The notes under the pieces were generated by a model, which saw only the letters and a program-made list of their open reading frames with translations, ran no database searches and was not told the DNA's origin. The position numbers were made by a program, and so were the translations under genes. A stretch of DNA of 61,350 nucleotides, the filler included, from Hausera hauseri (lineage: Eukaryota), in the NCBI GenBank assembly GCA_046269625.1. It is 10 parts of 10 records of this genome, joined end to end, with 100 filler letters (N's around TTAATTAATTAA, not from the genome) between each part and the next. Parts side by side here need not be neighbours in the genome. Positions count along the whole stretch, not along the records: positions 19,720 to 28,256 come from JBJURY010610999.1; 9 more parts are not named here. The stretch is one strand, 5' to 3'. Positions 5,139-48,399 of the stretch are shown piece after piece; the first letter of the stretch is position 1; every line of letters starts with the position of its first letter.

Positions 5139-5162
5139 GGCCCACCTTCAACTACTAACATT

Positions 5163-8728: not shown

Positions 8729-9244
8729 ATACGAGACGAAATTGATTATAATGGCGGTTTAATTAGAGAATTGAAGCAAATGTCCATATCAACCTTTAGT
8801 ACAGAAAACTAAAAGCTGAATGAACATGAAAATTTTGAAACGCATAGTAAACCACTCTAGTCTATGTGACGAAATATTAGACGAAAAAGAGAAATCTATA
8901 TTAAATGCAGACAGATCAATGAAAAATTTCCTTTGTAAACTATCGAAAAACATCTTGAGCGGTGAAAAGATGATAGAGGGAATTATGGTTGAGAACATCA
9001 TAGAAGAGTTAAGGAAAGTGCTACTGTATTTGGCCATTAAAACAAATTTAGCTCGAGAGAATGAATTTAACAAAGCCACTAATCTAGTGCGAAAAGCTGC
9101 CAGGAAATGACCCCGAGAAGTAGACAGGTCTAAATTATTCGGAAAAGAAGAAGAGCATCAAAATGGACCCTCTTTTAACAATAGTAATAGTAGATTCGAA
9201 GACATGTTACAAAGTTTAACCATAAATAATTGGGGAAATGAACC

Positions 9245-11070: not shown

Positions 11071-11333
11071 TTTTCGAAGAAAATAGATGGAAAGCGAATG
11101 TTGAACGATATGTTGGCTATCATAATCGAAAACGTAAAAGGAGACACATATTTAGTTACAAACGCAAATTCATAAATGTCAAGACACGAACAGATAACCC
11201 TGACGATGACGAGCCTAAGGGAGGAGACGCCGTCTCTAATACATACAAATACAGAAATTATTCCGTTATAAAACCACCACTACCAACACTACCGCCAACT
11301 TCATCTATACATGAAGACTGTGAGAAATAATCT

Positions 11334-13906
11334 GTGAGCTTATATCAAACAGATATCTATAGAAAACCGTTCAGCCCTGAAGATCCTTATGAAGGAGCAA
11401 AACATTACGGTATATTACGTAAAATGCAAGAAACGAAAAGAACATTTGCTCCATATCGCCGTTCAGCAGTCGACGACCATGGAATAATCTATTCACCAAG
11501 AGTACCTAGGCCAAACGAAATACGAACCACATTCTCACAAGACCATGAGACGCAGAGTTTCAGGAACCAAAAAATACAACCTCTAGCTAGGAGGCAGGAA
11601 ACGGAAAACGTTAGTTGCACGAACAATGAACTGTACTCAAATAGAGAGCTAAGACAGTTAATCGACCAGCCAGTAGCGACCAATGAAGTTAGAATTAATG
11701 GCTATAAGGTGTCAACGATTCAACAACCAAAGAGAGTGCCAAATTACTATGGTGCGATAATCGAAAATAGACCCTTCTCGAGAATTCAGTTAAAAGATTG
11801 GGAAGTTTGCGCATTGATAGACACTGGATCCGAAATATCACTGATAAAAAATGATTCAATACCGCAGTTCCTACGAAAGCAAGTATACCTACCTTCAAGA
11901 ACAGAACCAGGAAGCATTGGAGCTTTTGGACAGTCATCCAAAAGCAAATTCCGATTGAGGCCAGAAATTTACATAATGGGGCAATCATTTCATCACGAAT
12001 ATTCAGTAATGGAGCAGTTAACAGATGATGTAGTTTAAGGATGCGATCTGTTGAGGCAATTACCTAATGTAGCAATAGACTTCCATGCAGGAAAATTAAT
12101 AGAGCTCGGTCCGACAAAAGGAATTAAAACCACCAAAGATAGTCAATTTGGAGAGGCATGGATTCAAGTGGACGAGAACATTCCACCTAAAACCGAGGTA
12201 TTAATATATGCTCAGGTACGTCAAGACGACGACCAACCAGTGTATTTTGAACCAAAGGACATATTAACAAGCAATGTATTAACAAGAGTATCGACGGGCT
12301 ATGTGCCCATCAGAATAGCTAATAATGCACCAACTCCGATCAAACTGTATGCCAATACCACTTTTAGTCATACGTAGAGAGTATCGTCAATAACTATTGA
12401 AGAAAAACCTTACAGGTGTGCCAAATTCCTACCTCACGTCGAAACTAAATTTTCGCCAGAAGCATACTGTCGATTCTACGAATTACTCTGTCGTTATAGC
12501 TCAATCATCGCGAGAGACGAAGAATACATTGGCAGAGCCAAAGCCTTGAGACTAACAATTCCATTTAAGAAAAAGCCTGGCTCCAACGATGAAATAGACT
12601 TAGAGTATCAAAAGATGCCGAAATGGTATCCTCCTCCGCACTCTTTAAGGCCAGAGATAACAAAAGATGTCGAACGTATGTTAAGGGCCGACATATTTAG
12701 ACCAAGCTATAGACCTTGGTACTCACTTATACTCATGGTCAAGAAGAAAGGTACTACAAAGCATCGATTTTGTATCGATTATCGAGAGTTAAACACACTT
12801 ATGATAAAAGATTCCTTCACTTTACTGTCAGTAAAAGAAGCCCTAGATAGACTTTCCGGAGCTAAATGGTTTACCACACTCGATCTACAATCCGGATATT
12901 GGCAAGTACAAATAGACGAAGAAGGCCGCTACAAAACTGCTTTAAAAACGTACGACGAAGTGTATGAATTTAATGTCGTGCCTTTCGGGATAACCACCGG
13001 GCCAGCCATCTTTAGCCGAATGATGAACAAAATGCCGATGGGACTGGAACACGCCTTTGCGTACCTGGACGACGTGATGATTGCATCAAAAACGGAAGAA
13101 GAACACTTAAATGATATTGAAGACACGCTCATGACAGTACAGCAAGCTGGGTTGAAATTAAACCCCAAGAAATGTAAATGGGCTCAAAACGCTGTATTTT
13201 ATCTCGGGCATATAGTTGGAGAAGGAGGATCGAAACCTGATAAATCTTTGCTAAGTAAGATATCAAATTATATCGAACCCCAGAATCAAAAGGAGTTGAG
13301 ACACTGGTTAGGTTTATGTTGGTATTATGCCACTTATGTACCAGATAATTCAAAAATAAATGTGCTCTTGTATTGCTTACTTAAAAAGGAATTAAATGGA
13401 AATGGACAGACGTCGAACAGAAGGCTTTTGACGAAATGAAGAAAATCTTAAGTCGCGAACCAGTTTTAAGATACCTTGATTTTAACCTACCGTTTATAAA
13501 TAAAACGGATGCCAGTAAAGAAGGCATTGGATATGAGTTAGCACAGAAACGAGAGAATGAAGGTCTAGAACACCCAATCGCATACGGAGGACGGTCACTA
13601 AAGAAGGATGAAAAGAATTACTCGGTCACGGAATTAGAAACGTTAGCTGTAAAAGAAACTCTACGACACTTTAATGTATGCGCCTACGGACAGAAGATTA
13701 TAATTGTTACGGATCACAAAGCGGTTACAACTTTGAAAAGTGGAGCAAATAACCAAACATGTAGACTCAACAGATGGATTGTAGAGATCTCACGATATAA
13801 CATTGAATTTCAATACAAACTTGGAAGCAAGCATGTCGATGCCGATGCATTATCAAGGCTTAAAATCAAAACAAGTGCAATTGCGGTAATGAGAAAAGCT
13901 AAGCTC
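11334..13906 (+). pseudogene. pol: Pol: aspartic protease, RT, RNase H (Ty3/Gypsy)
   Basis: CALIDTGSEISLI; RFCIDYRELN; LDLQSGYWQV; VPFGI; YLDD; KTDASKEGIG; YSVTELETLAV; TDHK; ADALSR. Confidence 0.95.
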
Positions 13907-14006: not shown

Positions 14007-15046
14007 CGATATGCCATTGTTGACATCTTTGTTCAATAAACCCATGTTGCTCACAATAGATTGCATATATATTCCAACATTATCGCTGGTTTCGAAATCC
14101 TGCTTGTATGTCTCAACAAAATCCGTATTCTTATCAAAACTGATATAATTCACATTGCTATGGGTAAACGTTTATGAATCGGTAGTATAACTGCCCGTTT
14201 TTTGAGTAGTCGTTTGAAATATAACGAGCACAAATTTTGGCAATCGCATGTCACCAAACTGCACAGCTTTGTAAAACGTAGTTGAACCTTTGGATACGGT
14301 GTAAAACACGAGTTCTGTGCATTGTATTGGGTAACAGGCATTTTGTGTTTCCAAGCCCAATCGATGTCCCATGAGCACAGATGGTTCTACCTTTACACGA
14401 CATAGGTATAAGCGTGCCTCGGTAATTTTCAGTATGAGTTTGAGATTTGCAACTGCGGTTTTCAAACAAAAGACATTGTCGCTGCGTTTGGGCCGAATCA
14501 TGGCTTTAACACCGGGCAGTAAGTATTTCGGCGGATCAAAAAAGTCAAAGTACAGCGGTACACACATGGTAAGCGCTTTTGATTCAGCCACCTATGCCTG
14601 ACATTTTGCTGCAGTGGCGTCATATTCGATGGTTTTCGTCAAATGAGTCGTTTTCGTGTCAGCACTGTAATTCAGAGCTGTTTTAATAAATGCTTTGATA
14701 CTGTATATACTTGTATTGCCTTCGATTTTGACAGTTTAGAGTCAGTGAAGCCTCCATTTAGTGTGAGGAAAAGGTAATTGGCCGGTGTGACAGTGTCTGT
14801 TGAGGCGAGAACCGTTGATGCATCCTTTTTAACAATGACTTTTACATAGAGTAGCGTATCGTTGAAATCCAGGTATTCATTGTCCGATGCCACAATGCTG
14901 AACTGAATGTCAATGTTATCGTCAGTTGAAAACGAATCAAAGGGGTAGATTTCTTCAAATGTTGCATTGTCCATAACAACGTGTGGTGCGGCTTTGTCGA
15001 ATATACACAATTCAGATTTTTCAGATTGCATTTGTCTATCAATCAA
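14007..15046 (-). pseudogene. Polinton major capsid protein (double jelly-roll), truncated at contig edge
   Basis: KSELCIF..FEEIYP..IQFSI..EYLDFNDTLLYVKV; KYLLPGV..KRSDNVFCL; ARLYLCRVKVEPSV..ACYPI; LPKFVLV. Confidence 0.85.
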
Positions 15047-15059
15047 TCAATCGAAAATC

Positions 15060-15400
15060 GTACGACAACGACGTTTCTTTATAGTTGAAAAGCTAACTGA
15101 TCTACCACGTTTTCTCAAGCCACTACAAGCGAATTGTTTTTTGACTGATTCATTGATTCCCGGTGCAGGCTTTTTATTTCTGACAAGGTGTGTTCCTTCA
15201 ATGATTGTAAAATCGATTTGTTTTCATATAGTACATCCTATGCTGTTTTTGTTGCCACGGCTTCGATACGCTTCAACACCGAAAATGCTAAACGTGCCAG
15301 CGTACGCAACCATCCAGAGCTATACTGCTTACCAACGAAATACGGCAGTTTACCTCCTTGCTGGGGTTTACTGTAAATGGAAACGATTTCAGAATCAATT
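15060..15400 (-). pseudogene. Polinton core/PM-like small protein
   Basis: Manual translation PQQGGKLPYFVGKQYSSGWLRTLARLAFSVLKR, a QxGG motif plus amphipathic helix, at the usual position before the major capsid gene. Confidence 0.7.
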
Positions 15401-15403
15401 GTT

Positions 15404-16484
15404 TTATTGGATTCGATGGAAATGAAGAGTTAGAGAGGTTGTGGTACCGTACGGAAATTCAATAAGGTAGCCCTCGTCACATCGGATATTCACTTCAACA
15501 TTGTTTATAGACGTAGATGCCACAGGTAGGTACATTGGATTATCGAGCTTGACAGTGACATTGTCACCGGCAGTATACTTGCTGATTTCCGGATAAATTG
15601 CACGGAGTAGCGGTACACGTACTCCACCGACCAAAATCGGTTCGGTGACATTAACGTAAATGTACATTTGACTTAGTCCCGTTTTCAGTTGGGGTTTAAG
15701 TGTTGCAATATTTGCCACCTCCGCCCCTCTTTTCGTATATGATGTCTCAAACCGCTGTTTTTCAAAACCCAATAGCATGGCCAAAGCTTTGTCCAATGAA
15801 ATATCGACAATATTCTTTTTCAGTTCAAATTTAATGTACCCATTTTTATCTTACTCGAAAATTTTAAATATTGCCTTGTACTTTTTATTAGAAGAAAAGT
15901 GTTGACAGAGCTGTGATACAGATTTGCAATAGACATTGTCTTCACTCGATACGTATGACGTTGACACCCGCCCTGTTGTATAGGTAAATTTCACCGTTGT
16001 CTGGTAATATACGGGACTTAATCTTGGAGCAGTACATTTTCACTTTTAATATGATTGCCTTTGTACTCTGTATTTAAGAATTCAAATTTCTGTGCCATCT
16101 TAGCGGACAGAAAGGTAACAGTAAATTCCAAATCTGCCCTAAAAACTAAGTTTTCCCCTAAAATATAAATACCGATTTTGCCGTATGAACCGGAACCTGT
16201 TTCTGTAGTGTAAATGACCGATTCTCCAACCATTATTTTATTGTTAGTAAGTGTCAGAGGACAAGAATGTGTTTTGGTTTTAATAACAGTTTTTTGTACG
16301 TTATTTTCATACTACTTTTCAATGTCACCGGTGCGTAGAGAAAGTTAAATTCCGTCAGTGCAACCTCCCATTGTCCAGCAGATAAATTCAAAGAATTGTT
16401 CCAATTTACAACGTATTCACTAGCGGAATTGTTCGGACGAGTCGTCGGGCAACTGTTGCTGGGCAACACAATGTAAATACTCAT
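15404..16484 (-). pseudogene. Polinton minor capsid protein (penton), copy 2
   Basis: N-terminus MSIYIVLPSNS..PNN..QWEVALTEF; C-terminus MYIYVNVTEPILVGGVRVPLLR..PMYLPV..LTLHFHR. Confidence 0.85.
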
Positions 16485-16520
16485 GATCTCGATGGTGATG
16501 ATAATGATGCAGTTTGTTTA

Positions 16521-17591
16521 TTATCGACGTTGACGACGTCGAAAGTGTAACGTTAAATGTGTTGCTGACCCGAACAGAAATTTAATGGGTTCCCAAAATT
16601 CATCAAACATATACACGAAAATACTGTGCACAATATTGTGAGATAATGATAAGTACATGGGTCTTAACATAATAACGCGAACAGTTTCACCCGATGATGC
16701 TGATTTGTACGTGTCAGAATCCAGTTCGATAGAAGCCAGCAGTTGTTTACGTTCTCCACCAACAAGTACGGATTCGGTTAAGTCCGTTAAAATGTTGATT
16801 CGGTGAAATGCTCCATAGAGTTGTGGCTTGTATTTGCCAACAATAGATCATCCAACAATGTTTTTATAGAATTCACGTTGTGAAAAACCCAGATTCCGGG
16901 CCAATAATTCATCAAATACAAAATATGTAACATTGTTATGGCATGTAATCGAAATATGACCATCTGCGTTTATTTCACATGTCTTTACGGCTAACGTAGC
17001 CGTTTACTTGATGTATTCTCACAATTCCAGCTCCGTTTTTATTAGTAAATTGTGTGGTATAATACATGAGTGGAAAACTCATTCTGACGTAGTTCACATT
17101 ACTATAATATCAGATTCCTCATCGGATGAAAGGTCCAATTTTTCACCAATTATAACATGTTTACCTAACCTAGACGTTTTGATTGTACATTGACTGATAG
17201 AAAACCCCATGCCTAAGCATCAACTATAGAATTAAATTACATTTCCATGGGATTTCGATGTATTAGTTCCATACAATAGTTTGAAAAATAAGCATAAACC
17301 GAAAAATTTTCTCGCGAATAATTGCAAAGAATATCGGTTATTGTGTCGGATTGTCCGCAAAAGACTTAAAATCTGGTACGTTTCTTGTCGGGTAAAGTAA
17401 ATACCACTGGTCTGACGTACTGTCATTGGTAAAAATGTAAACATAAATTCCGTCAAAGCCACTTCCCAGGCTCCATGGCCTAAATCGACCGGTTGGTTCA
17501 AGTGCACGGTAAACAGTTTAGCGGTATTGTCGTAGTCGTCGTCATGTTATGATAATGATCTGTTACTATCAAATACCAAATAAATGCTCAT
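16521..17591 (-). pseudogene. Polinton minor capsid protein (penton), copy 1
   Basis: MSIYLVFDSN..NTAKLFTVHLNQPVDLGHGAWEVALTEF; C-terminus (manual) ILTDLTESVLVGGERKQLL..RPMYLSL..LTLHFRRR*. Confidence 0.8.
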
Positions 17592-18725
17592 CACTCATCT
17601 GCGATGCAAAAATCCAACACGGTGTAGTGTATGCGTGCCACTTGACGAGACATAGTTTATTCGAACCTTTGCCATGTGAACGTAGAATTTCCTGAATATG
17701 ATACACATCAAATTTTTCCGGTATTACTTGCAGTTCCTGTTCATAAAATTCGCCATGTATTTTGTCACCATTTTAATCTTCTAAAACGTACATAACCGGA
17801 CTTTGTTTTGTGTTGATTGCTGAAATTCGGAAAACCTCATCGCTCCAGTTCTGATTGAAATTTCTAATGAATGGTGTCATACTCAACTTCGAAATACGTA
17901 CGTAATCACCGATTTTATATTTTTGGTGACGATTAATTGTCTCTCGTCCTCGTCAATTGTTTTGATAAAATCACATATCCAAATCATCGATTACGTTAAC
18001 CGGCCGTAATCCATTGATGCCACGATGTGTCGAATGATTGTATGCATGAATAATATCTGGCAGTACATTTACCTAGCGCTTGTTGCCTTGCTTCGTAAAG
18101 ATTTTGTTTATGCGACCGTGCAATGTTCGATTAAATTGTTCAATGAGTGCCGCTTTGCATTACAAAAACAACGAGTAAAGGTTTACGCCGAACCGTTTCA
18201 AGACCGCGACAATGTGAGCGTTGTAGTATTCCTTACCCAAATCCGTTTGTAAATTATTCGGTGGCTGTTGTTGTTGTTTTTGTTCGAACAGTGTCTGAAC
18301 AGCGTCGGCAATCTCTTTAGCGAATTTAGATTTCACGGCAACTGCACGTGCAAAGCGACGCATGTCAGTACGTACCGATATTCATCGTTGATGCTGGCAT
18401 ACGAAATCATTTTCATCAGATCCATTTGCCATACTTTATTTACACCGGAAGCACATTATGCACAAGTTGGAAACCGCCTTCTTATCGGTTTGTTTAGGCT
18501 GTATGCTTACTGTTTCTCGAGCCAACGTTGGGTCCCGTGCCGAATCTGTTTGACAGTCTTTTCCATCTTGTCGACAACAGTATACTCGACGGGGTGACGC
18601 GGATCGAACCACACGTTGCCTATCGTTGCCGTCAATGGTGTTGGTTTTGCTTGCATTACAAGAGTTAGAACGAAACGTAAATGAAAGATTCCGTAAACTG
18701 GGACAGAAAGATGAAAACCATGCAC
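17570..18725 (-). pseudogene. Polinton retroviral-type DDE integrase with C-terminal chromodomain
   Basis: WFDPRHP; WLEKQ*AYSLNKPIRRRF; WQMDL; LQTDLGKEYYN; EQFNRTL; KYKIGDYVRISK; NWSDEVF; FYEQELQ; LVKW..CWI. Confidence 0.88.
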
Positions 18726-18767
18726 CCATATTACCGATTCATCATATACTTACCGTCATTGTTTATA

Positions 18768-19055
18768 CTAAACTGTTCCACCAATGAGTTCATCCAGTAA
18801 TAATGTGACAATCGGTAGAATTGCACCAAAGAATCCACCGTATTCCTGGTACATGACCTTCCGTTTCAGTCGTTTACGACAAGGGTTCGAAAAGCCAATG
18901 AGTCGTTTTCGATACTTTAGTAAATTGCGCTTTCCACTGCCAGTGTCAATGTGATCCACATCGATATTGTACAAATTTTCCATGAAATCGTCTACTACAA
19001 ATTGCGGGAATGATCGCAGTATGTTTCGCTTATGTATTGTAGACGCCTTGAGCAA
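18768..19055 (-). CDS. Conserved Polinton small protein ending in xGG|F plus hydrophobic helix
   Basis: KRKVMYQEYGGFFGAILPIVTLLL, a motif typical of the ORF between ATPase and integrase in Polintons. Confidence 0.65.
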   Translation of the reverse strand: MLKASTIHKRNILRSFPQFVVDDFMENLYNIDVDHIDTGSGKRNLLKYRKRLIGFSNPCRKRLKRKVMYQEYGGFFGAILPIVTLLLDELIGGTV

Positions 19056-19374
19056 ACAATAAAGTACGGCTGACTACGTTTGAATCGCATGTTTCTCGGA
19101 TGTATTGATACTGCTGATGAGATGTAGCAGTTGTTTGTAACCGTTGCCACTGTGACGATAATTTGCATCTAGTTTTGTTGTTGTTCAACGAAGCACAGAA
19201 TTGTTTAATCGCTTGACTGTAGTGGTGGTTCGTTTTGATACACGTTTTTGCCACCGGACACCCGTTTGATATTAGGTTGTTTACGTTTAACAATCGTTTT
19301 TCGGAAATTCTTAATTTTTATCGAAATCATGTCTTTGTCAATTTTCGAATTTGTTTATAGACACATACACCACC

Positions 19375-19619
19375 CTTCTAATGGAAAATATCTGTTCGTG
19401 CACGCATTTCATCGGGATACTCTTGTGTAAAGTCGATGAACAAGTATCCGTGTGGCTCGTTCGTAGCATCATGATATGCATATATCAAGTAGGCTCGGTT
19501 GTGAGGAAATGCTTATCGTGCAACATAATCAATGATAGTCTAATCACGGGGATTTTTGAACAACACCAAATAGTGTACGTTTAGATTTCTTGTTCGATGC
19601 TGTCCGCCCTGATGGAACA
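19375..19619 (-). pseudogene. Polinton packaging ATPase (FtsK/A32-like), C-terminal part
   Basis: Manual translation RTRNLNVHYLVLFKNPRD*..AYHDATNEPHGYLFIDF..RARTDIF. Confidence 0.85.
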
Positions 19620-19719: not shown

Positions 19720-20790
19720 AACAGAATCATGTTATATAATTCAACTAAATCCATTTTCGCGGTGTGATAAACATAATCTATCTTATTATTCGTATATAAA
19801 TACCACTTTATGTCTTTAGTTGGTAGCTTTCATGTATTCGCTAAGGTTTCTTTTGTTACGAATAAGCTCTCATAAGATGTCGAATAAACTGCATTTGACC
19901 CGCAAGTCGATACTGCTCCTTTGCGTGCTAATACTATTCTATCTTTATCACTAGATGACATTAAAACTTTCAAAAAAGTAGTCTGTTTTAAGGTTCGTGG
20001 TGTAGGTAAACTTATATTATGATTATGTACAAACTCTTGCTACTTGTCATCATAATATAAATAGCCTTGTATTTCATACATAGGTACCTGTTTAAGGAAA
20101 GCTAACGGACATATCGTAACTGTTTTTTCCCAGACTAGCGTAGATTCTCCTCATGTACATACTCCATCACAATATGCACCAGATGGTGCGGTTAACATTT
20201 TTCCTGTGATTGCATTAAAATTTACTTTATGTTACTTTATGGTGACGGTAAAATCTTCTATTTCTACTACAGCAGATTCTTTTTGTCTATTTATCATCAT
20301 ACTTTCTCCTTTACAAGCTCCACCGTATCCGAGCCATATTTTTTCGGCTGTAACTATACGTGAATAAACTCGTTTTCCTATACCTACTTGTTCTGTTTGT
20401 TGTAAACCTACGTGGATTGAATCTGTGGCTTTTCTACAATTTTCTGCAGTAATTATTAATTGTCTAGGTAATCCTTGTAGAATAATTGCGGAATTTCATG
20501 AGTTATGACCACAGTTATAAGCAAATACTACTTTATTAACCTGACATTCCTTTACCTGTACTTGTTGATAACTGATTCTTTGATACAAGTTATAATTGTA
20601 AGGGCCTTCCTTTTTTACTGATATCGAACTTGTGTTTTGACATTTACCTATATCTACTAATGAAAGTCTGGCTGTTACTTCTGGTCTAGAGATATCGTAA
20701 GCTTCTAATGCTTTTGTAGTTTTTAAGCTGCTCACTGATATCAAATACAATAACAAATGAATGATTTGCACTACCCATTCTGAAATATTG
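19720..20790 (-). pseudogene. env: Chuvirus G-like envelope glycoprotein, N-terminal half
   Basis: WVVQIIHLLLYLISVSSLKTTKA|LEAYDISRPEVTARLSLVDIGKC..YQRISY..ECQV..YNCGHNS. Continues in one frame through point stops: ENCRKA, GGACKG, STLVW, TCGSNAVYSTSYESLFV, YTNNKIDYVY..LVELYNMIL. Confidence 0.85.
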
Positions 20791-21433
20791 GTATCCTTAG
20801 GGTATATTAATGTAGTGGGGTTAAATTTTTTGAGAATTTCATTCCAACCACTGTTTTTCGTTACCCAATCTTTTGTTAGTTTATCCATGTGATGGGCTAA
20901 ATCTCTTACTATGTGGTGTAACTTAGCATCGACCTCTGTTTGATTTTTAAAACTAACCACTATGCAGCCTAACGCCATCAGCAATCGGTTTTAATCATAA
21001 TGATTTAATAGTCGTGTCAATGCTTTATTCAAACCTCCTCTCAGTTTATATTTCTGTAGTAACCTAGTGATTTGCGACGAAAATTTCTAGCGGTTTCTAT
21101 TACAGACTGTAACGGAATTGTCGTAATTGCTGGTATTTTCTTAAGCTGCTTTGGATTTGCTTTCTTGATTAACTGTTTCAGAAGTTCATGAGTTGTCAGT
21201 GTTACTTTTGGTACATTTATTTCACTTTGTTTTGAAGTTCCCGAGATTAGACTTTGTATTGGCTCATTCTCATTGTCACTAATGGTGAATCGTTGAAAAT
21301 TGTCATATAATATATCTTCCAATGTTTCCCGTTGTTCCCTACATCTTCGTGACAGTGGCCTTTTCTTTCTTTGCCTTTCTGGCTTTTCCTTTTCTGGATT
21401 TTCTTCATCATCACTTATTGGGTTAAAGTCACA

Positions 21434-21700
21434 TTTTCGCGGTCTCCCTCCTTTTTTCATGGTGCCAATTTCCATAGTGATCTGATAAGTCTTTCCGGTA
21501 AGGAGCCCATAATCTACAACATAATCACTGTCAACGGCTAATCTGCCATAAACATCGGTTTTCACTATTATATTGGTCTCTAGTTCTAATTCGTCCAGTA
21601 CTTTTTTTCGAAGATCTGTGAATTTAGTAAACATTCCCGCTGTTACCTCGGTTACTTGTTTCCGCTTACTGATTCTAATTTCTATATTTATAATATATGG
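21434..21700 (-). pseudogene. Ubiquitin-like domain followed by KKGG-RPRK
   Basis: INIEIRISKRKQVTEVTAGMFTKFTDLRKKVLDELELETNIIVKTDVYGRLAVDSDYVVDYGLLTGKTYQITM aligns in register with ubiquitin (G47, D52, D58-Y59, T66 equivalents). Confidence 0.65.
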
Positions 21701-22499
21701 TTGTTTTCTTCAGTGTTTTCGTCTTAAATCTCTTCCCAGAGTTTTTAATAACTTTCTTGAGGCTGAAAAACAGAATGCATCATCTCTCGTTAGTGGTAAG
21801 AGTGATGGTGCACATTCTATTCGACTAGCTAATGGTAGTAACTCGTATTGCCGTAAAGCATTCCATACTTCGTTAGGTGCTGAATCACCCATTTGTAATT
21901 TAGCTTTAATTACTTCATTTGTTGATTCTAAAGGTTCACCGTGTACTATAGAACCTGGTGGAATATTTACTTCTGGAATAATCTTTGGGTTTTCAATTGG
22001 TTGCAGCATGGTATCAGGGTACTAAATCAGATCCGGTATAGGTGTGAGTTCATCATCTTCTAGGATTTCAAATATTTCATAATCATCGACTACTTGCGGT
22101 TCCTTTTTGGATGTACTTGGTTGTAATGAATCCCAAATATTCTCGAAAAAAGTTGGTTGTTGGGTTGGAACCTTTGCTTGTGAAAGTGGTGTAACTAGTC
22201 TATCGTTATAAGGTTCTATCCATTCTCCCGTTGGTTTTATTCTGGTGGGTTCATGTGAATATTCGTCAGAATCCATATGTGGATGCCTTTACGCTATTGG
22301 CCCAATTGACGGAATTGTTCTTGCTTCCTTAGTTTTATCAAGTTTTTGTATTATTGGGAAGGCTATTCGTAATGTTTTCTGGCTTTCTATTATCCACTGT
22401 ATATTATATTCTACGCTCACAGTCTTTAGGTATTCATCTAGGCATCTTTATGCCGTAATTTCCGAATTATGACCGTGGTATAGGTCTAAACATTTGTAG

Positions 22500-23655
22500 C
22501 TTCTGTTGGTCTGTTTCAAATCATAGATAGCTGTTAGATTTTTTGAATTTATTCTCAATATATTTAGTAGCTCTGTCAACTAGCGTCCAATGATTACTTT
22601 TCCTGGTAAATATCTATTCATAAATTCACTTACCGACTCTTGTTGTTGTGGATAAGACCGTCTGCTATATTCAGTGTACTTAGTAGTATCTGGTATATTT
22701 GGATATACATGAATATTGAGGATTGTTTTTTCTTCTAGATTCTTGACAGTGACCTGAATAAGTCCCTTTTAATCTCCTTTGGTTATTCATCTACCGGTAA
22801 GAATTATTTCTCTGTTTTGTGTTACTGGTTCATCCACGGTTAACACAGGCGTTTTCTTAAGCAACTGTATTAAATATATCGGACAGTTATGCAAAGGTTG
22901 AATTTGATAATCTCCTTCGTAGGGATAATTAGGGATTATCTTAGTTTCTTTGTAAACTATTACCGTCTTATTGTTGATTTGTAACCGGGCTTCTCCTTGA
23001 TTAGTAATTATAGCACATGGCGCGTCATTTCTTTTAACCTGAATATCAGTCCTTTTTAAATAAATTTTATCAATACCTTCCATACCGATTGATCCTTGTT
23101 CGGCAATATCTGCGAATTTTATTCGGTTGGATTTCTTATCAGCGAATATTTTATCCCAATTCTGTATTATATTTACATCCATACGCTGTAATGCCGCTTC
23201 TGGGATCAGAGTAGTATTATATGTCATCTCTTGTTGAGGGTGTTTATCATCCTTGAATATAGGTCTGCTTGGAAAAATATAATATGGAGATCCCTGACAG
23301 TTAAGTTTAATTTTATATTCTTGTCGTAAGTTGGTTACTTAATTGTAGTAAAGTACTTCGTCTTTCCCATTCATTGTATGGTAGGTTGAAATTCTGATCT
23401 GCACTAAACGTACCAAAGACATCTGTTTCCTTTAATTGTACTTGTTTAAATAACCATGGCAATTCTATTCCAACAATAAGTTTTCTAGAGAGTAGCTGTT
23501 TAAGGTTTTCGTAGCATTTTTCTTTTTCCAGACATACGTTTTCTGATTCAATTATCAACTCACCTTCAATATTCTCTATTCTTATTCGATTAACTTCTGG
23601 TTCCTGTTTATTATTAATAGTCTTGTCCGCGGTACAAAGATTAAAAGCAAATTTT
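22500..23655 (-). pseudogene. Two degenerate DEDDh (REX4/ISG20-like) exonuclease-fold domains separated by a linker
   Basis: FAFNLC..VNRIRIENIEGELII..LKQLLSRKLIVGIEL (23655-23390) and GLIQVTVKNLEEKTILNIHVYP..TKYTEYS..EFMNRYLPGKVIIGR*L..LNILRI..AIYDL (22820-22500). Confidence 0.5.
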
Positions 23656-23852
23656 TGATTTCTTTAATTTCTGGCCATAACATATATGGAAGTGTAATAT
23701 TTTAAATGTCTGGTACCTTTCGCTCTGCTTGATCCAAATAATTACTTGTTATGAAGGGCTTTTCCAGGATTGAACTATTGGATGGCGGTTTAGGTTCAAC
23801 TTGATGGTGTTCTATTATGGGTTTTGCCATTAATAAGCTCGTGAAGGCTGAT

Positions 23853-26438
23853 TTAGTTTTGTTCATTGAAAGTTACTGAATGACGGAGTGAAGCACTTCT
23901 TTCGTCGTTGTTACACTTCCTATTATCACAAGAGATTCCTTTCTCTTTTATGGAACTATCATAAGATGGTATTGTTGATTTCGACTTTCTTTCAGTGGAA
24001 TATTTGGAATATTCTGGTGTCGTATTTTTGTCATATATAAATGGGGAAGTGTTTCTATTAGATGATGAGTCATTTCGTCTAAAACTATAACCTGACGGTT
24101 GGGTATATCTATCATTATTGTTATTTGGTATGAAAGAAGGGGTTCGATTTCGGTCTCTTGGAGGATATGGACTAGGATTCCTATTGTATCTATCCGATTC
24201 TCGTCGAGGTGGAGTATAGTCACGTCTTCTGTCATAGTTTCCTGATCTTAAATCATTATACCTATTTCTATTGTCATTTCCGGAATTATACCTATCTCTA
24301 CTATCACCTCGCCGGTTATCTCTTTCGCTACTATGATTTCTATTAAAGTTATTATATCTTTCTCGACTATCATCTATTCTAAACCTCTTACGACTTTCGC
24401 TTCGTCTATCATTATAATATTTAGGTCTTGATCCTTCCAAACGATTGGTTGGATATCGTGTTCGACTATCATCTCGTAGATATCGTGTTCGACTATCATT
24501 TCGTTTATAGTATGAGTTCATTGAATTGTTTCTATCCTCGTAACGACCGGAGTTTCGGTCGTTACTGTATCTTTCTCTACTAGGGAATCGGCTTCTGTTA
24601 TCATTTCGGTCTCTTGAATAGCCTCGTGATCTATATTATCTGATATCATTTCGCTGTTGATCATCATAGTTTCCCCTATTTCGTTGATATTATGTATCTC
24701 TGGTTGCTATTATAGTTTCTAGATGACTGGTTAAAACTTCCTCTCTCTGGGGTATTACTTCGCTATGGTGTATTGTTGTCTTGCCGATTAGGACTTTGGC
24801 TTCTCGAAGAATCTCTCCAGGGTGAACTGCTACAATTTGGTACATCTGGCCTCACTAGTAATGGTGTCGTAGCAACTGCTGCGATTTGCGTTTGATAAGT
24901 CCATAAAGGTGTTTCGTCTATCCGTGTTGCCATTTTCGGGTATAATCTATCAGCTCATTAATATTGTTGGATGTATGAAATTTAACTCTTTCTCGTAAGG
25001 GTGGTAAGAGTCCAAGTACGAATTGTTTCGTGATCATGGCACCAAAAGCGTTTGCGTTATGGCCAAAATATCTAGTCATTGCTGTATTAAACCTATTGAT
25101 ATAGGTCAAAACTTCTTCATTTAATTTTTGTTTACAATTTTGGAATTCTAAATATTTTTTTTATCTTTCCGATTTTGTAAGATCCTTTCTGTATGTTGTA
25201 TCCAGGTTTCATTTACTCGTGCACGTAGACGGGTATTGCCATTCTCAAATCGTTATTCACATGTACTGGTAAGAGTGATATCTTCTTGACATCATTCCAA
25301 TGCATGGCTGTAGCTAGAGAATCATATTCATCCAACAAATCTTCCAAGTCTGATACTCGTCCTTCATATGGTTGAAGACAGGGAAGCATCTGATATTTCT
25401 CTTCTCTTCTTTCGTTACTATTTGGTAAAACGTAACCGGCATTATTATTAGGGTCGTAGTTACGCTCATTTTGATGAGCTAACAAGTCTCGGTTATTCCT
25501 TAGTGGATCCATGTTGTTGCTATCAGTGTCAGAAATTTCACAAGGTATGGAACTTAGTTCCACGGAGAACTCTGGTGATTGTACTTCTTCCTGCTGTTGA
25601 GTTATCATTTTCTTTGTCCTTACTTGTTTTAGACGTTCGTTTAATTGATTTATACCTCGAGTTAACGTTTCTATTTAATTTCTGGTATAAGTGTTTTCTA
25701 CTTGTATTTGCTCCTGCTCGCATACTATGATCGCAACTTCATTTTGTATTCCACCTAACCTTTGACTCACTTGCCTCTCATTATAATCGGTCTGTTCTCT
25801 ATTTCTATGTATTGCTGCTATATTGCCAATAGTCTGTTGTCGTATATCACATATTTGTCTGGAGTGGATGTTAACTTCTCGTGCAAGTTGGCCAGTCCTC
25901 TCCTCCAATTCGTTCAAGTCTATATTATTATCACTCACCTTTTGCTCTATTTGGGTGGTTATTTCTTCAACTCTGTCCAATCTTGTACTATTATTCTCTG
26001 TTATATCCCCTCATTTTTGTCGGGGTATATCTTGTATTTCTTCAATTAATTGTCGTATACTATCGTCCGTTCGATTCTGTCTTATTCTTAGATCATTCAC
26101 GTTCACCTGATGTACTTCATAACGTGTTCGACATTCAGATTCCTGGTTAACTATCCTCTGTACCAATTGTCGTGGATTAGGTACGTTACGATATTGCCCT
26201 ATAAGCGGCCTTCTTCGACCACTGACTTCGCTTACCCAGTGGTGCTGTACCGGGGTGGGGACAGTTGTAATGAATCGATATCGATTAATGATTCTGGAGC
26301 TGATGCAGCTCTTAAGGCGTCCAAACTAGAGGCGGAACTAATATTTTCTTCGTTTGAATTAATTTCATTAATTGCCGTTAATTGATTCCGTGCTAGTCGT
26401 CCTCGGGATCGGGTATTGTATTGATGTCCCTGCGCCAT
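23853..26438 (-). pseudogene. gag: Gag: coiled coil, capsid, long RS/RD-rich basic region
   Basis: MAQGHQYNTRS start; coiled coil 25980-25675; LQPYEG..DEYDSLATAMHWNDVKKISLL; QKLNEEVLTYINRF..QFVLGL; RS-rich 24800-23853. Confidence 0.82.
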
Positions 26439-26473
26439 TGTTATTAAGGAAAACTAAGTTGTTATCCATATTA

Positions 26474-27001
26474 TTATATGTATATAGTACAAGCTTGTTC
26501 TATAGGTAATTCACACACAGCACATCTTAATAATATAGAATCCTTAGGAACACAGTTTTTACAATGAATAATGTGTCCTCATGGCAGATAAATCGTATTC
26601 GATTGATTTTTTCTACAAATTAAACAAGTCCAAATTGTTCGGCCAATATCTGTGTATCTTTATCAACCTCTTCCTCTTTTTCCTTTAATATTAAAATCAA
26701 GTGTAGAATCCTTTGATAATAACCGTCATCCATTAATTGCATTTCATATATATATTGGTAATCATTCCAGGTAATGCTTCATACTCTGCATTCTCATTAA
26801 TTTTAATTTGGGGTATCCTTGCTCGGTTATTCGGTTGAGTAAAGGATTGTTATACAAATTGTACCATTCATACACTAATTTAGGTGGCTAATTTTTTATT
26901 GTCCGTAATTGGGTTGTGCAGTTATTAAGATTGGCCAGAGTCTTACTGTTGTTGTCCAGAAATTCTACAATAAATTCATTCAATTTTATTACTAAACTCA
27001 T
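26474..27001 (-). pseudogene. UBA-like plus IAP-type RING finger protein (not in ORF track)
   Basis: ATG at 27001; NPLLNRITEQGYP (UBA-like); WTCLICRKNQSNTIYLP*GHIIHCKNCVPKDSILLRCAVCELPIEQACTIYI*. Confidence 0.78.
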
Positions 27002-27050
27002 ATATAAACTAATAAACATTTATTCAGATAAGATTTATACTAAATGTTAA

Positions 27051-28256
27051 TTAATGTTCGTCGATGGAATCATCTTCATTATTCTCTTCTGAAAACTGAA
27101 AATACGTTATTCGTCTTTCTATAAGACTTCTGCAGACTGGGCAATTCATTATTTGATCTGAGCATTTCTCACCCGTTTTTAGATGACCCCACGGCAAAAG
27201 GATAACCTGTGCTACGTCTACGTAGCAGATTACACATTCGAGATCGCGTAGATAGAGTTTTTCAAGAATATTTCGTTCGGGTTCTCTCCCTTTCTCCAGG
27301 GAAATAAAATTCAAGTTCTGAAGTAATTCGAACGCATTTGGCGACCAATCTGGTTGAGTTTCTGTTCGATTATTAATATACTGTAGGATATTCTCGAGCT
27401 TTGCCGGATGTCGAGATATTATTGATGTAGCTACTGGGCTACCCTGATAACTTTCATATAGGTTTCCGATATTGAATTGTACTTAACATTGTTTCTTCGT
27501 ATGATTTCCTGATCTTTTATATATGGAATATTCACATTTATTGGTATGTAATATTTTCGGACATCGTTGATCAATATTTTCCAACCAGTACGTTTCTTTT
27601 AGACATAGTACATTTAACATATTGTGCTTCTTCTTTGAATATCAATATCACTCCTTGTCTGGCTAAATCTTCAATATGTTTATTTCTTTCCAAAGTTAAT
27701 TTTCTCTTCTATACGGTATTTGAAATCAAATGTGCATTTTCTTCCACCTCTGTGTTATCCGTTGAATAAACCATTCGCACTGGTATTATCGCAACGTAAT
27801 CGGTATCCCGATACAAATCAGGTTGTTTATCAAAAATATCTGTAAACGGTATATTGCTGACGTTGATATTCAATAAATAGGGACAGGTAGAATATAGTTT
27901 CTTATGTATCTCTTTTGGTCGATCTTTCATCTGTTTATATTGGAATTGTCCCTGGCAATAAAAGCATTTAATCTGTCCTGTTGTAGTACGAAATAATCCG
28001 GCTTTAGTATACAATTGCGCTAATTCTCCTGGAACGGGTGAATTTGGGTACTTTAAGAACGATATTTTTCTATTTTATGTGTCTCTCATGGAGTTATCTA
28101 ATACTCTTATTTTGGAGTAATTTATTATTCGTTTAACGAATGACACTGGTCCGTACTGTCTATTTTGGTAATGTAATAGATATTGTATTGTATTAAAATG
28201 GATTGATTTCTGATCCTCATATTGTTTGGGTGTTTGGAGTTTTATATCTTTCACCT
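27051..28256 (-). pseudogene. iap: Inhibitor of apoptosis protein (BIR-BIR-UBA-RING), intronless
   Basis: BIR1 NRKISF..YP..AGLF..KCFYC-x16-H-x6-CPYL; degenerate BIR2 DLARQG..VKC..W.E..H...CEY; UBA-like SPVATSII..FELLQNL; RING CVIC..LPWGHL..CPVCRSLI. Confidence 0.9.
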
Positions 28257-28356: not shown

Positions 28357-28869
28357 ACCATACACACTAGTAACACGGACATTGCTTACACCTTCTATAT
28401 GTCTCTATTCTCCTTCCTACACACTCCCGACTTTTATTTGTCGCACCATGGTTCTGTGCTACATCCATATTACTCACTTTCTTCCTTCGCTTCTCCGATC
28501 ATTCATATCACCCTTCACTTTCACATCCGAGGCGGTTCGGTCCCTGATCCTTCTACTAAAAAATCCTCCAAAACAAGACTTGGTCGTCGCCCTGCTGACT
28601 CTTCACAATTTGCTTCCCCTAATCTTCCTGGCACAGAGTTCTTCCTCGATAAAACTAATTCAAGCCGCACTTGGCTGCAATTTCATTTACAATGGCTTAC
28701 AGCCAGTCATATTACCGATTCTTTCTTGCGCGCTAACAGCTTGTTACTTCCTCTCCCAGCAAATATCAAGCATCAAATCAATAATATTGTTGATATCCTT
28801 ACTTTGCCAACACCATATGACATGCTTTATGAGTTTGTTCTTCATATTACCGATCCATCGATTGATAAT

Positions 28870-29365
28870 ATAAAACTGTGGTGCCCACATTGACTCATTT
28901 AAGAAAAAAACTATGGAATTAGCAAATAAAATCATTTGTAAAGTTATCATAAATTTATATAATTTAAAAATGAATAAGTGTCGTAATTGCAGATTTTGCG
29001 ATACCCGCCAATCTAGTGTTGTTTAAATAAAAAAAATTTGAGATTAAAAAATTTAAAAAAGTAGATTTTCAGTTTTTTTTTCATTCTGCCATTTTTATTT
29101 ATCAAAGAAATGAAGTAACCTTTTTATTCAATGCCTGTACAGACTCATTTTTTGTTGGGAACAAGGTTCTGTTTAGAACAAACTGTCGATGCTGATCATT
29201 TTTGCAAATCTTTAAAATCCCCCTTGACCATTTTTGCAGAAACTCTGGGAGACTCATAACCTTTCTCGGGGGTAGGTTAGAACTCCCTACAAATGCGGCT
29301 AACTTCTTGATGCTATTCAACTCTGATTTGAATCAGAACGAATTGGAGATAAAGTTCAAACTTAA
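28870..29365. mobile_element. Insertion splitting gag of element E, possible Helitron remnants
   Basis: Gag stops at DPSID and resumes at IQKYFNEHSISNQKPS. The insert has a degenerate GC hairpin plus CTAG-T (28988-29017) and minus-strand NRTLFPTKNESVQALN resembling a PIF1 helicase motif. Confidence 0.45.
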
Positions 29366-32300
29366 CAAATACAGAAGTACTTTAACGAACATTCTATAAG
29401 CAATCAAAAGCCTTCTGACTTTCTGCAGACCTATATTTCACACATAAGTGCTCTTGGCGTTACCTCCACCAACAATGCGGACTTGATTCGTCATTATTTC
29501 CTCTCCTCCTTGCCCATTTCCATCAGAGCTCTCCTTACTGTCGTTGACGACTCGACGGCGATTAAAAAACTTGCCCTATTGGCTGATAAAAGTTTCGAAA
29601 TTTTACAAACTAACAACTCACAACCCGTAGCTGCAGCAACCACGCATACTCCATTGCACGTAGACACGACTGTTTTCGCATAGCAACTACAATTAATGCA
29701 GAAACAATACGATACTCTACAACATTCAATTTCCGCCATCACGGCCCAACTAAGTAATCTGTCTATGTCTCGGCGAGGGGAGACCCGTGCATCGCGTGAG
29801 CATAGCCTCTCCAGGCACTCATTTCGTTCAAAATCTCTTGGCGGACGAATGATTTGTTTTTATCACAATAAATTTCGTAGAAACGCAGAAAAATGTCTAT
29901 TGGGCTGTAAATTTTATGACGAGCATTTTGCGGTGGACAGCCCTATCTGTATTTACCACGCAAAATTCCACTATCTTGCCAAATCGTGTATACCGGGATG
30001 TAAACTAAACAAAAACAACTTCAGTTTTTATTCATCTTCTTCTCCTCCTTTTTTTATCATTCATCTACTTTTCCTCCACAATCTTCAAAAACTAAAAAGG
30101 GCGCCAGATGTCACTGCACATTCTGGCATAGGTAATACCGCTCAGTCTTCTGGCAGTCTTAACACCGCCTCCGCAGTTTTTCTGTTAAAAGTTGCACTGT
30201 TGTCTAGCAGTGCTCCACATATCGATTTTCTTATCGATCCAGGAGCTGACTTGTTACTCGTCCCTTTGTCCTTCGTCCCTACACCCACTGCAGTTTCTTC
30301 TCCCCCGCTTTTCACTGCCAGTGGCCAACCTTTGACAATCGCAGGTACCACGGAACTGATTTTTACGTTTTCAAACTTATTAGGCAAGTTTGTCTGAAAA
30401 TTCCACATGGCCAATATTAAATCGCCAATAATCGGCTCAGCATTTGGCCTCACACGACCTGCTAGTTGACTGCAAGTATGGCTGTTTGCTACGTAGAGAC
30501 TCCGTCGAGAACGATAACAATTGCCTACCAGACAGCTCAACAGGCACTTAGTCTGCGAACTTACATGTGAATTTGACAAATTCCTCGTCGGTTAATAACA
30601 ATTCATTTAGTAGTTTATCTATTTTCTCAATTACATTTCAAACATCAAAGTAAACTTTAAAACAATCCGTTAAAACGAATGTTAATGGCGGCGATGTCGT
30701 TCGTTCTTCGCCAATCACAGTGACCTCCTCTTTTGATAATATGCCTCAATCATTTTTATCACTAGATTCCAATCTCAAATCCTACATCATTTCTTCTTGT
30801 TCTCGCATACTCAAAAAGGACTCTAGTTTTATGCCCCCGTCAACAACTTATCACCACATTGTCACCCAACACCAAAGACCTATCAGAAAAAAGGTGCGAC
30901 CATTATCACCTCGTAGACAAAAAGCCGTGGAATTAGAGTTTAACGAACTCGAAAAATCTGGTATCATTCGGAGTTCAAAATCAACATGGGCTTTACTATT
31001 ACATGTAGTATCAAAAATACGGTATTTTTCGACCATGTGGCGACTACCGTCAAGTAAGCAATCTAACCATCATGGACGTTTACGCAGTATCGCTCATAAA
31101 AGACATCCTGCACAGTCTTAACAACACCAATACGTATTCCACAATACATATGCACATAGCCTGCCATCAAATTCCCTTTGCACCCGATGACATTTCAAAA
31201 CTGCTGTCAACATCCATTTGACCTGTACTAATACATCTTTATGCCATTTGGTTTACGTAACGCAGCCCAAACCTTTTAACGCCACATCGACACCGTTCTC
31301 TCATGCCTTGGTTTTGCTCATCCGTACATCGATGACATATTAGTTGCCTCCAAATCCGTCAAACAACACCGTGAACATCTCCGAATTATTTTTCACAGAC
31401 TACATCATAGCAACTTACAAATTAACTTCTCAAAGTGCAGATTCTTTCAGAAACCTGTCAATTTCTTAGGCCACATCATCACTCCGCACGGCCATTCTCC
31501 ACAACCTGATCGACTACAGAAATTGAAAAATGTAACAGTACCAACGACCACTAGAGATGTGAGGAGTTTTCTTGGCACAATTCATTTCGTCCATAAATAT
31601 GTACCGCATTGCTCTAAGCTTACAGCACCTTTCGCACACCTCTCATCTGGAAAGAAAAGGCAGTTAATACAGTGGACTCCTGATTTAGTCAACAAATTTG
31701 ATTACTTACGTGAAGGCCTAAAAATCGTCGAAATACTGACTTATCTAAAACCGGACGGGGAACTGATACTCACCACCGATGCCTTTACCACAGCTACTGG
31801 TGCAATACTACACCAGATTTCCAATGGCGTCGATGAACCTTTAGAATTTTACTTTCGAAAATTGACACAACCAGAAAGCCGATATGCAACATTTGATCGT
31901 AAGGTACTAGCCATATTTCTGGAAGTAAAACATTTCAAGCATCTCTTCTCTCCTCCATTTATCATCCAAAAGGACTACAAGCCTCTACTTCACATCATGT
32001 CACTAAAACAGCCATCACCGATACAGGAACGAAAGATATCGTACCTATCTACATTTAGCTTCGTCATAAAGTATATTTCAGATACTAAGAATTTGGTCGC
32101 GGATTTCCTGTCGCAGTCGATCAGCTCAATTACGGTTAAATCAATATTTTCTATCGAAATTCTAAAGCTCAATCAGCCGTCTGCTGATATTCTTAGCTCT
32201 TTCAAATCCTTCGAAATCATTGATGTCATTGCATACTACACATCTAACCATGGTAATAAAATAATCATTCTTGCTCCTTCTTTGCAGAAACCAGCTTTCC

Positions 32301-33778: not shown

Positions 33779-33961
33779 TGTAGTGCCACGGTCTAGAACA
33801 TGGCCCTCCATTTTTGGCAATAGTCACCGTTTGGTACAGCTAGGCCGGCACGGTTTTCGTCCTGCCTTTTACTTTTGGCCTGTGTTTATTTGACAGCCCA
33901 ACAGTGCACATTAGTGTCAAATAAAATCAATATTCTTATTTGGCTGTTTATCAGACTACCA
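33779..33961 (+). repeat. 3' LTR of element E, after polypurine tract 33768-33778
   Basis: G8TGA PPT, then TGTAGT...ACTACCA ends with AATAAA at ~33920. Confidence 0.75.
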
Positions 33962-33994
33962 ATTATTCTATCTTTTAATTTTGAACGTTTGTTT

Positions 33995-39655: not shown

Positions 39656-39656
39656 T

Positions 39657-48364: not shown

Positions 48365-48399
48365 GTATCGGCTCTAAATGAAATGAACAGGGTAATGTT

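What the first reader, a model, noticed from the sequence alone, without database searches (positions are those of the whole stretch)
19720..26438. Second, divergent element with the same gag-Ubl-GRPRK-helical-signal-glycoprotein order
Seen: D shows no obvious nucleotide identity to B by eye, yet is collinear at protein level: MKKGGRPRK vs MHPVGRPRK, FQRFTIS vs LKQMSIS, ELLKQLI vs KILKRIV, W-hydrophobic signal then AYD..LSLVDIGKC vs IYD..YSLIDLKMC, and LVELYNMI vs IAELYHKM. Inference: the arrangement is a conserved ancestral feature of a family, not a one-off insertion. Pol is predicted to lie beyond the contig edge at 19720.
Basis: partly seen in the sequence, partly recalled or inferred. Interest (0 to 1): 0.85.

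Follow-up and report, generated by a model that had tools for sequence, protein, structure and literature searches.

The report
Burro-like retroelement with dead nuclease pair
This is a decayed copy of a very abundant, virus-like jumping gene whose capsid-then-envelope layout with likely ubiquitin-like and Bcl-2-like cargo is already published for planarian 'Burro' elements; what it adds is a capsid protein without zinc knuckles followed by two likely inactive RNA-trimming domains of untested function.

Summary
The quoted motifs are all present. Contig D (minus strand) is a broken copy of a high-copy element. Two natural relatives with long open frames (P0003, P0004; 41-66% identity) show that gag through envelope was one reading frame. 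The envelope is gB-type (PF24664) and is homologous to B's (0 of 1000 shuffles).

Outside the envelope, B and D do not align better than chance, GRPRK is GRLRK in the closest relative, and D's 'helical' part is weakly Bcl-2-like while B's is not. The gag-Ubl-Bcl-2-env order with a BIR accessory gene is published for planarian Burro elements, and gag-env-pol gB errantiviruses are known from three phyla. This scan also noted the layout on other DNA.

D differs in having no CCHC knuckle and two tandem DEDDh-like domains, lacking catalytic acids, in frame after Gag. The ubiquitin-like fold was inconclusive. Pol beyond 19720 could not be tested; D ends mid-envelope. New variant of a known kind; modest interest.

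The parts
27874..28065 (-). BIR domain of a broken IAP-like (BIR...RING) accessory gene upstream of gag; the gene runs to the contig edge at 28256
   Evidence: PF00653 E 4.5e-8, 33.9 bits, above cut-off; covered by repeated contigs like the rest of D
27114..27245 (-). C3HC4 RING finger of the same IAP-like gene
   Evidence: PF13920 E 1.6e-10, above cut-off
25567..26438 (-). Start of the polyprotein (ATG 26438), N-terminal region and coiled coil
   Evidence: 44-52% identity to P0004 residues 1-285; SMC/spectrin-like coiled-coil hits on P0004
24921..25407 (-). Gag capsid-like domain
   Evidence: 73% identity to P0004 345-520; PF03732 E 7.6e-4 on P0004 (below cut-off), E 0.076 on a D piece
23880..24788 (-). 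Arg/Asp/Asn/Ser/Tyr-rich tract in the nucleocapsid position; no CCHC knuckle
   Evidence: No CCHC pattern in any minus-strand frame of D 19720-26453, in P0003 or in P0004; about 20% Arg, no Cys or His in the relatives
23367..23662 (-). First, shortened DEDDh-like domain, likely inactive
   Evidence: Internal repeat of the second domain: 0 of 2000 shuffles in P0004, 12 of 2000 in P0003; 49-63% identity to relatives
22826..23338 (-). Unidentified 171-residue segment between the two nuclease-like domains
   Evidence: 56% identity to P0003; no Pfam or PHROG hit
22391..22825 (-). Second DEDDh-like (REXO4/SDN1-like) domain, likely inactive
   Evidence: Atlas feature scores 0.90 to RNase_T/REXO4-like and arenavirus NP clusters; profile A3 best PDB hit SDN1, E 0.021; 64-68% identity to relatives
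21713..21931 (-). Small unidentified helical domain
   Evidence: 62% identity to P0003; the only segment above pLDDT 50 over a long stretch in the model of P0003 301-1345
21458..21709 (-). Conserved 84-residue domain, putatively ubiquitin-like (fold not confirmed), followed by KKGG
   Evidence: 73% identity to P0003; strand-strand-helix-strand pattern at low confidence; no Ubl hit by Pfam, PDB profile or fold search
21209..21457 (-). Basic/acidic linker holding GRPRK (first base 21448) and FQRFTIS
   Evidence: 47% identity to P0003, motifs not kept there; not significant against B
20817..21208 (-).
   Evidence: 74% identity to P0003; TIGR00865 bcl-2 E 0.0069 on P0003 1284-1326, far below cut-off; BCL2A1 E 0.69; all-helical prediction
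20709..20804 (-). Hydrophobic helix: predicted tail anchor of the Bcl-2-like domain and internal signal sequence of the envelope
   Evidence: Hydropathy peak at P0003 1336-1359; 88% identity, the most conserved of 12 segments compared with P0003
19720..20708 (-). N-terminal half of a gB-type (Monjiviricetes-like) fusion glycoprotein, cut by the contig edge
   Evidence: PF24664 E 1.3e-18 with X at stops; 62% identity to P0003, which continues to residue 1963 through a transmembrane helix

Best explanation
D is a broken copy of a highly repeated element whose relatives encode capsid, cargo domains and a gB-type envelope in one reading frame, and it is likely a Burro-like Ty3/gypsy gag-env-pol retroelement whose pol would lie beyond the contig edge. 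Shown: the order IAP-like gene, gag, two nuclease-like domains, an 84-residue domain, a helical domain, a hydrophobic helix, envelope; the single frame in relatives; the high copy number. Inferred mechanism: the polyprotein is made on the ER. The hydrophobic helix after the Bcl-2-like domain would insert as an internal signal, host signal peptidase would cut after the Ala-x-Ala before the envelope's first residues, and the Gag-cargo half would stay tethered on the cytosolic side while the envelope folds in the lumen. The envelope's own transmembrane helix would return the chain to the cytosol, where the protease (as in B) would cut the rest. The IAP-like and Bcl-2-like parts would hold off cell death while particles form. 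The Arg-rich tract and the two inactive DEDDh folds would bind RNA in place of zinc knuckles.
For: P0003 and P0004 are collinear with D from 26438 to 19722 at 41-66% identity, each one open frame, overlapping by about 760 residues. Named domains are 62-88% identical to P0003 against 42-47% in linkers, as expected under purifying selection. PF24664 envelope above cut-off. No protease, RT or CCHC motif between gag and env in D; no protease or CCHC motif in the relatives, so pol is not before env. B, with a homologous envelope, continues env-PR-RT-RH, and contigs of run X1 bridge B's env-PR junction. 25,157 contigs of run X1 lie on D, all 30 bins covered. Burro has Gag, Ubi2/SUMO-like, BCL2-like, in-frame env before PR, and BIR (PMC6431247 section 7). 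By eye, 8 of 8 ectodomain cysteines of the six Platyhelminthes_C1a rows fall in the same order in P0003.
Against: No pol was seen for D's family: P0003 ends about 30 residues after the envelope's transmembrane helix with no protease. No LTR was examined, and no PBS-like start like B's was evident in the 620 bases before D's gag. Bcl-2 support is weak (E 0.0069, BH2 region only; designed thioredoxins scored better than BCL2A1; Atlas gave 0.77 to an unnamed cluster). The Ubl fold was not recovered. No CCHC knuckles, unlike Burro. Only two relatives were found among 1.84 billion representatives. All functional steps are inference.
Confidence: 0.72

Rival explanations
1. D belongs to a pol-less gag-cargo-env family that is mobilised in trans by another element's pol, for example a B- or H-type element.
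For: P0003 stops shortly after the envelope's transmembrane helix on a 7,573-base contig and has no protease motif. No pol sequence was linked to D in any call.
Against: P0003's first 20 or so residues do not match P0004 while the rest does (by eye), so that copy looks broken itself and its end is weak evidence. In B the homologous envelope runs on into PR in the same frame. The published flatworm gB elements are GAG-ENV-POL.
Confidence: 0.15
2. One reading: B and D descend from one ancestor that already had the whole gag-Ubl-GRPRK-helical-signal-glycoprotein cassette, with each module homologous.
For: Same order by eye; homologous envelopes; B's domain has a weak PF13881 SUMO-like hit, E 0.089; the Ubl-Ubl score is borderline, 25 of 1000; GRPRK occurs only 3 times in 122,696 six-frame residues, two of them at these sites.
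Against: Linker, helical and capsid comparisons are at chance level. GRPRK is not kept in P0003. B's helical part gave no Bcl-2 hit; its best PDB hit is a BRCA1 RING-helix at E 0.29. B has a CCHC knuckle and no upstream IAP before a PBS-like site; D has neither knuckle nor such a site.
Confidence: 0.3
3. The 2.1-kb insert is not nuclease-derived; the DEDDh likeness is chance and the segment is some other alpha/beta domain pair.
For: No Pfam, NCBIfam or PHROG nuclease hit. Atlas scores of 0.90 are reached by 4-10 in 100 shuffled proteins. The PDB hit is E 0.021, and profile A3 included the H-contig domain, chosen by eye for its nuclease likeness. The AlphaFold model was unusable (mean pLDDT 30.7).
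Against: The Atlas and the PDB profile point to the same superfamily; 10 of the ten best named Atlas hits share a family or clan (a third of shuffled proteins also get this). The predicted three strands-helix-strand-helix-strand order fits the fold (recalled topology).
Confidence: 0.15

Closest known systems
Burro / GYPSM1 giant Ty3/gypsy elements of planarians (Arkhipova and Yushenova 2019, PMC6431247; section 7 read in full; Grohme et al. 2018 not held, not read)
   Same: Gag at the N-terminus of one long frame; coiled coil; Ubi2/SUMO-like then BCL2-like domain directly before an in-frame envelope related to mononegaviral fusion proteins; BIR accessory domain; upstream accessory ORF; very high copy number.
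   Different: D has no CCHC knuckle (Burro has 2-3). No MATH, midasin or ankyrin hit on P0003/P0004. Two DEDDh-like domains sit between Gag and the Ubl-like domain, which that section does not mention. Pol, LTRs and total size are not seen for D.
GAG-ENV-POL HSV/gB-type errantiviruses of Platyhelminthes, Bryozoa and Nematoda, e.g. Smed_errantivirus_1-6 (Chary and Hayashi 2026, PMC13524379; abstract, section 5 part 1, section 6 part 2, passages, rows of supplementary files 1 and 2)
   Same: gB-type envelope after gag; multi-copy; by eye the same eight ectodomain cysteines as the Platyhelminthes_C1a rows.
   Different: The main text has no occurrence of ubiquitin, Bcl, exonuclease or Burro. D's pol, needed to place it in their tree, is missing.
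DEDDy ORF3 of bdelloid rotifer LTR retrotransposons Juno and Vesta (Rodriguez et al. 2017, PMC5408684; passages read)
   Same: An LTR element carrying a DnaQ-like exonuclease domain as cargo; the paper raises Maelstrom and EXD1 as inactive, RNA-binding DEDD derivatives.
   Different: There it is a separate ORF3, DEDDy-type, with catalytic residues intact. In D it is a tandem pair, REXO4/SDN1-like, in frame inside Gag-Env, with catalytic acids missing.

Membership tests
Burro / GYPSM1 | N-terminal Gag with retrotrans_gag motif | tested here: met
   PF03732 E 7.6e-4 on P0004, below the curated cut-off; D 73% identical there
Burro / GYPSM1 | Two or three CCHC zinc knuckles in Gag | tested here: not met
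   None in D, P0003 or P0004; D is therefore called Burro-like, not a member
Burro / GYPSM1 | Ubi2/SUMO-like domain before BCL2 | tested here: inconclusive
   Conserved 84-residue domain in that position; no Ubl hit; model pLDDT 49.9, no beta-grasp listed
Burro / GYPSM1 | BCL2-like domain directly before env | tested here: inconclusive
   TIGR00865 E 0.0069 on P0003, BCL2A1 E 0.69, helical prediction, following hydrophobic helix; no hit on D alone
Burro / GYPSM1 | Env in frame downstream of Gag | tested here: met
   P0003 runs from the Gag Arg-rich tract through env in one frame; P0004 overlaps it back to the start
Burro / GYPSM1 | PR-dUTPase-like-RT-RH-IN after env | not testable with these tools
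   D ends mid-env; no genome held; no related locus in viral or metagenome contigs
Burro / GYPSM1 | BIR accessory domain | tested here: met
   PF00653 above cut-off upstream of gag
Burro / GYPSM1 | MATH, midasin-like or ankyrin cargo | tested here: inconclusive
   No such Pfam hit on P0003, P0004 or D pieces; the upstream part of the element is off the contig
Burro / GYPSM1 | LTRs and total length over 30 kb | not testable with these tools
   Contig is 8.5 kb and internal at both ends
GAG-ENV-POL HSV/gB-type errantivirus | gB-type (chuvirus-like) envelope | tested here: met
   PF24664 33.5 bits on one stop-free D piece, 66.8 with X at stops, 215 on P0003; cut-off 27
GAG-ENV-POL HSV/gB-type errantivirus | Ty3/gypsy pol downstream of env | not testable with these tools
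   No pol motif before env; nothing seen after it
GAG-ENV-POL HSV/gB-type errantivirus | Multiple genomic copies | tested here: met
   25,157 contigs of run X1 laid on D, mostly under 95% alike; one run only, possibly the source sample, and summed depth is no copy number
DEDDh exonucleases (RNase_T / REXO4) | DnaQ-like fold | tested here: inconclusive
   Atlas 0.90, SDN1 E 0.021; no confident model
DEDDh exonucleases (RNase_T / REXO4) | Catalytic acidic residues of motifs ExoI and ExoII | tested here: not met
   The SDN1 ExoII Asp aligns with a non-acidic residue in D and both relatives; no D-x-E in the first strand (motif recalled); ExoIII not aligned
   Eight comparisons outside env: 25, 74, 216, 815, 185, 456, 629 and 202 of 1000 shuffles

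The most novel reading that the evidence does not exclude
A Burro-related lineage has replaced Gag's zinc knuckles with an Arg-rich tract plus a tandem pair of catalytically dead DEDDh domains inside the Gag-Env polyprotein. These domains bind and shield the element's RNA from host decay or piRNA pathways, much as the arenavirus nucleoprotein pairs an RNA-binding part with a DEDDh domain. A single helix serves as both Bcl-2 tail anchor and envelope signal peptide.
Probability: 0.2. Interest if true: 0.6.

Novelty: new variant of a known kind. Interest (0 to 1): 0.33.

Why it matters
The headline order is already in print, so the finding as written adds one more lineage. What could matter is the cargo. 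If the tandem inactive nuclease folds bind RNA, they would be a new kind of nucleocapsid or counter-silencing module in animal retroelements. The shared anchor/signal helix gives a simple, testable account of how a gag-env-pol polyprotein is sorted across the ER membrane.

Tried and rejected
(1) The 23870-22790 stretch looked at first like a dead protease plus dUTPase-like domain; rejected: no protease motif in D or relatives, no Pfam hit, and it holds an internal repeat.
(2) AlphaFold2 on P0003 301-1345 (5 rows) gave mean pLDDT 30.7 and Foldseek found nothing at E<=0.001. The Ubl model (pLDDT 49.9) gave no match at E<=0.001 and best VIA Z 5.2 to SLX4IP, with no beta-grasp among the rows listed; with such a model this neither supports nor excludes the fold.
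(3) More relatives: three homolog searches returned only P0003; the representative search added P0004; scans of viral and metagenome contigs found no locus.
(4) Extending D: no genome is held; 34 contigs of run X1 reach over D's ends but their letters beyond the edge are not shown. No RNA holder listed.
(5) The H-contig nuclease-like frame does not align significantly with either D-type domain pairwise (921 and 1206 of 2000).
(6) The Atlas was not obtained for the Ubl-like domain; for the helical domain it gave only 0.77.
(7) dN/dS among copies was not computed: no nucleotide sequence of the relatives was available; per-domain protein identity was used instead.
(8) Literature: searches listed no paper on tandem inactive DEDDh domains inside a Gag polyprotein. 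Grohme 2018 and Sacco 2022 are not held; their text and supplements, which annotate Burro-2 to -4 and the nematode elements, may bear on this claim.
Full report
Setting. The window is ten contigs joined by N-spacers. B is 5139-13906 and D is 19720-28256. No whole genome is held. Earlier notes of this scan on the same genome guess a flatworm host; I did not test that beyond noting that the envelope resembles planarian elements.

Observation. PF24664 (Monjiviricetes fusion glycoprotein) hits both contigs above its cut-off. D aligns to two of three B envelope pieces at 0 and 1 of 1000 shuffles; the short third piece is at chance. Outside the envelope the eight comparisons gave 25, 74, 216, 815, 185, 456, 629 and 202 of 1000; only the Ubl-like pair is borderline. 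The gag tblastx hits are between low-complexity tracts.

Relatives. A search with D's 222-residue frame found P0003 (1,963 aa). A phmmer search of 1.84 billion representatives with P0003 301-1345 found 2 proteins, P0003 and P0004 (1,339 aa). P0004 begins at D's ATG (26438) and P0003 runs through the envelope; together they are collinear with D from 26438 to 19722 at 41-66% identity. Each is one open frame, so gag through envelope was one polyprotein. D itself has about six frameshifts (read from the frames) and about 20 stops (23 counted, a few from an overlapping wrong frame). In P0003 GRPRK reads GRLRK and FQRFTIS reads FRQIDID, so these motifs are not conserved even within D's family. Identity to P0003 is 62-88% in the second nuclease-like, small helical, Ubl-like, Bcl-2-like, signal and envelope segments, 49-56% in the first nuclease-like and inter-domain segments, and 42-47% in linkers. 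The 25% for the pre-nuclease linker is an artefact of a wrong frame. Run X1 laid 25,157 contigs on D and 15,287 on B, all bins covered, most under 95% alike: both are large, diverged repeat families. This is one run and may be the source sample.

Anatomy of D. Upstream of gag is a broken BIR...RING gene, covered by repeated contigs like the rest, so probably part of the element. Gag has a coiled coil, a capsid-like domain (PF03732 weak) and an Arg-rich tract with no CCHC knuckle. They hold an internal repeat (0 of 2000 shuffles in P0004, 12 of 2000 in P0003). The second copy scores 0.90 in the Atlas against REXO4-like RNase_T and arenavirus nucleoprotein clusters, and a four-row profile finds SDN1 as best PDB hit at E 0.021. 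Both signals are modest, and that profile included an H-contig domain picked by eye. The SDN1 ExoII aspartate aligns to a non-acidic residue in D and both relatives, and the first strand has no D-x-E (motif recalled), so the domains are likely inactive. Next is an 84-residue domain. Its position, a G-x-L...DYG...GG pattern (recalled as ubiquitin-like) and B's weak PF13881 hit (E 0.089) suggest a Ubl, but no search or model confirmed it. B's counterpart gave no Bcl-2 hit. A hydrophobic helix and the envelope follow. D stops mid-envelope; P0003 continues about 270 residues through a transmembrane helix and ends about 30 residues later.

Mechanism (inferred). One polyprotein would be threaded at the ER: Gag and cargo in the cytosol, the post-Bcl-2 helix as both tail anchor and internal signal, the envelope in the lumen after signal-peptidase cleavage, and pol back in the cytosol after the second helix. 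B shows that last part directly: env, PR and RT lie in one frame, then RH. IAP-like and Bcl-2-like parts would delay cell death. The Arg-rich tract and inactive nuclease folds would bind RNA. None of this was tested. Pol for D is unseen; a pol-less family is the main rival.

Comparison with what is known. Arkhipova and Yushenova 2019 (PMC6431247, section 7 read in full) describe Burro/GYPSM1: Gag with 2-3 CCHC knuckles, MATH, Ubi2/SUMO-like, BCL2-like, in-frame env related to mononegaviral fusion proteins, PR, dUTPase-like, RT, RH, IN, plus BIR and ankyrin. Chary and Hayashi 2026 (PMC13524379; abstract, section 5 part 1, section 6 part 2, passages and supplement rows) report GAG-ENV-POL elements with gB-type env in Nematoda, Bryozoa and Platyhelminthes that are not monophyletic. 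By eye, the eight cysteines of their six Platyhelminthes_C1a ectodomain rows occur in the same order in P0003. Rodriguez et al. 2017 (PMC5408684, passages) describe intact DEDDy ORF3s in rotifer LTR elements. D works like a Burro-type element but fails the knuckle test, so I call it Burro-like. The scan has noted the same layout in other genomes (e1-8073080, e1-8146890, e1-8577234) and dead DEDDh cargo in this genome (e1-9332486, e1-9139971); these are unchecked notes, not support. Searches listed no paper on an in-frame tandem inactive DEDDh pair in Gag; Grohme 2018 and Sacco 2022 could not be read.

Verdict. Observation partly confirmed, interpretation partly supported. The order is known; the knuckle-less Gag with a tandem dead-nuclease pair is a modest new variant. 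Interest 0.33.

Noticed in passing
window 5139-13906 (contig B, +): B reads PBS-like TGGCGACC (5163), gag with one CCHC, Ubl-like, env, PR, RT, RH, so it shows the gag-env-pol order directly. Its segment 8820-9100 has a weak BRCA1 RING-helix hit (E 0.29), possibly a degenerate RING rather than Bcl-2.
   Followed up: partly
window 45496-51494 (contig H, -): RT-RH-integrase zinc finger, 41-49% identical to B's pol, followed by membrane-protein-like frames and a frame at about 46112-45540 that looks DEDDh-like without the first acidic motif (by eye; no Pfam hit). It could be the 3' half of a B- or D-type element; no link was shown.
   Followed up: partly
window 14007-19619 (C) and 56432-61350 (J): By eye, Polinton/Maverick-like frames (capsid-like in C, family B DNA polymerase-like in J). 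The two share an 81% match, 14007-14287 vs 56622-56900.
   Followed up: no
window 28357-33994, 36948-38232, 38333-43253, 51595-56070 (E, F, G, I): Several decayed copies of another Ty3/gypsy family, 63-90% identical to each other, without an evident envelope.
   Followed up: no
window 21713-21931 and 22826-23338 (D, -): Two conserved segments (62% and 56% identity to P0003) with no useful family hit; the first is a small helical bundle in the model.
   Followed up: partly
whole window: Ten separate contigs joined by 44 N + TTAATTAATTAA + 44 N; neighbours across spacers are not genomic neighbours.
   Followed up: yes
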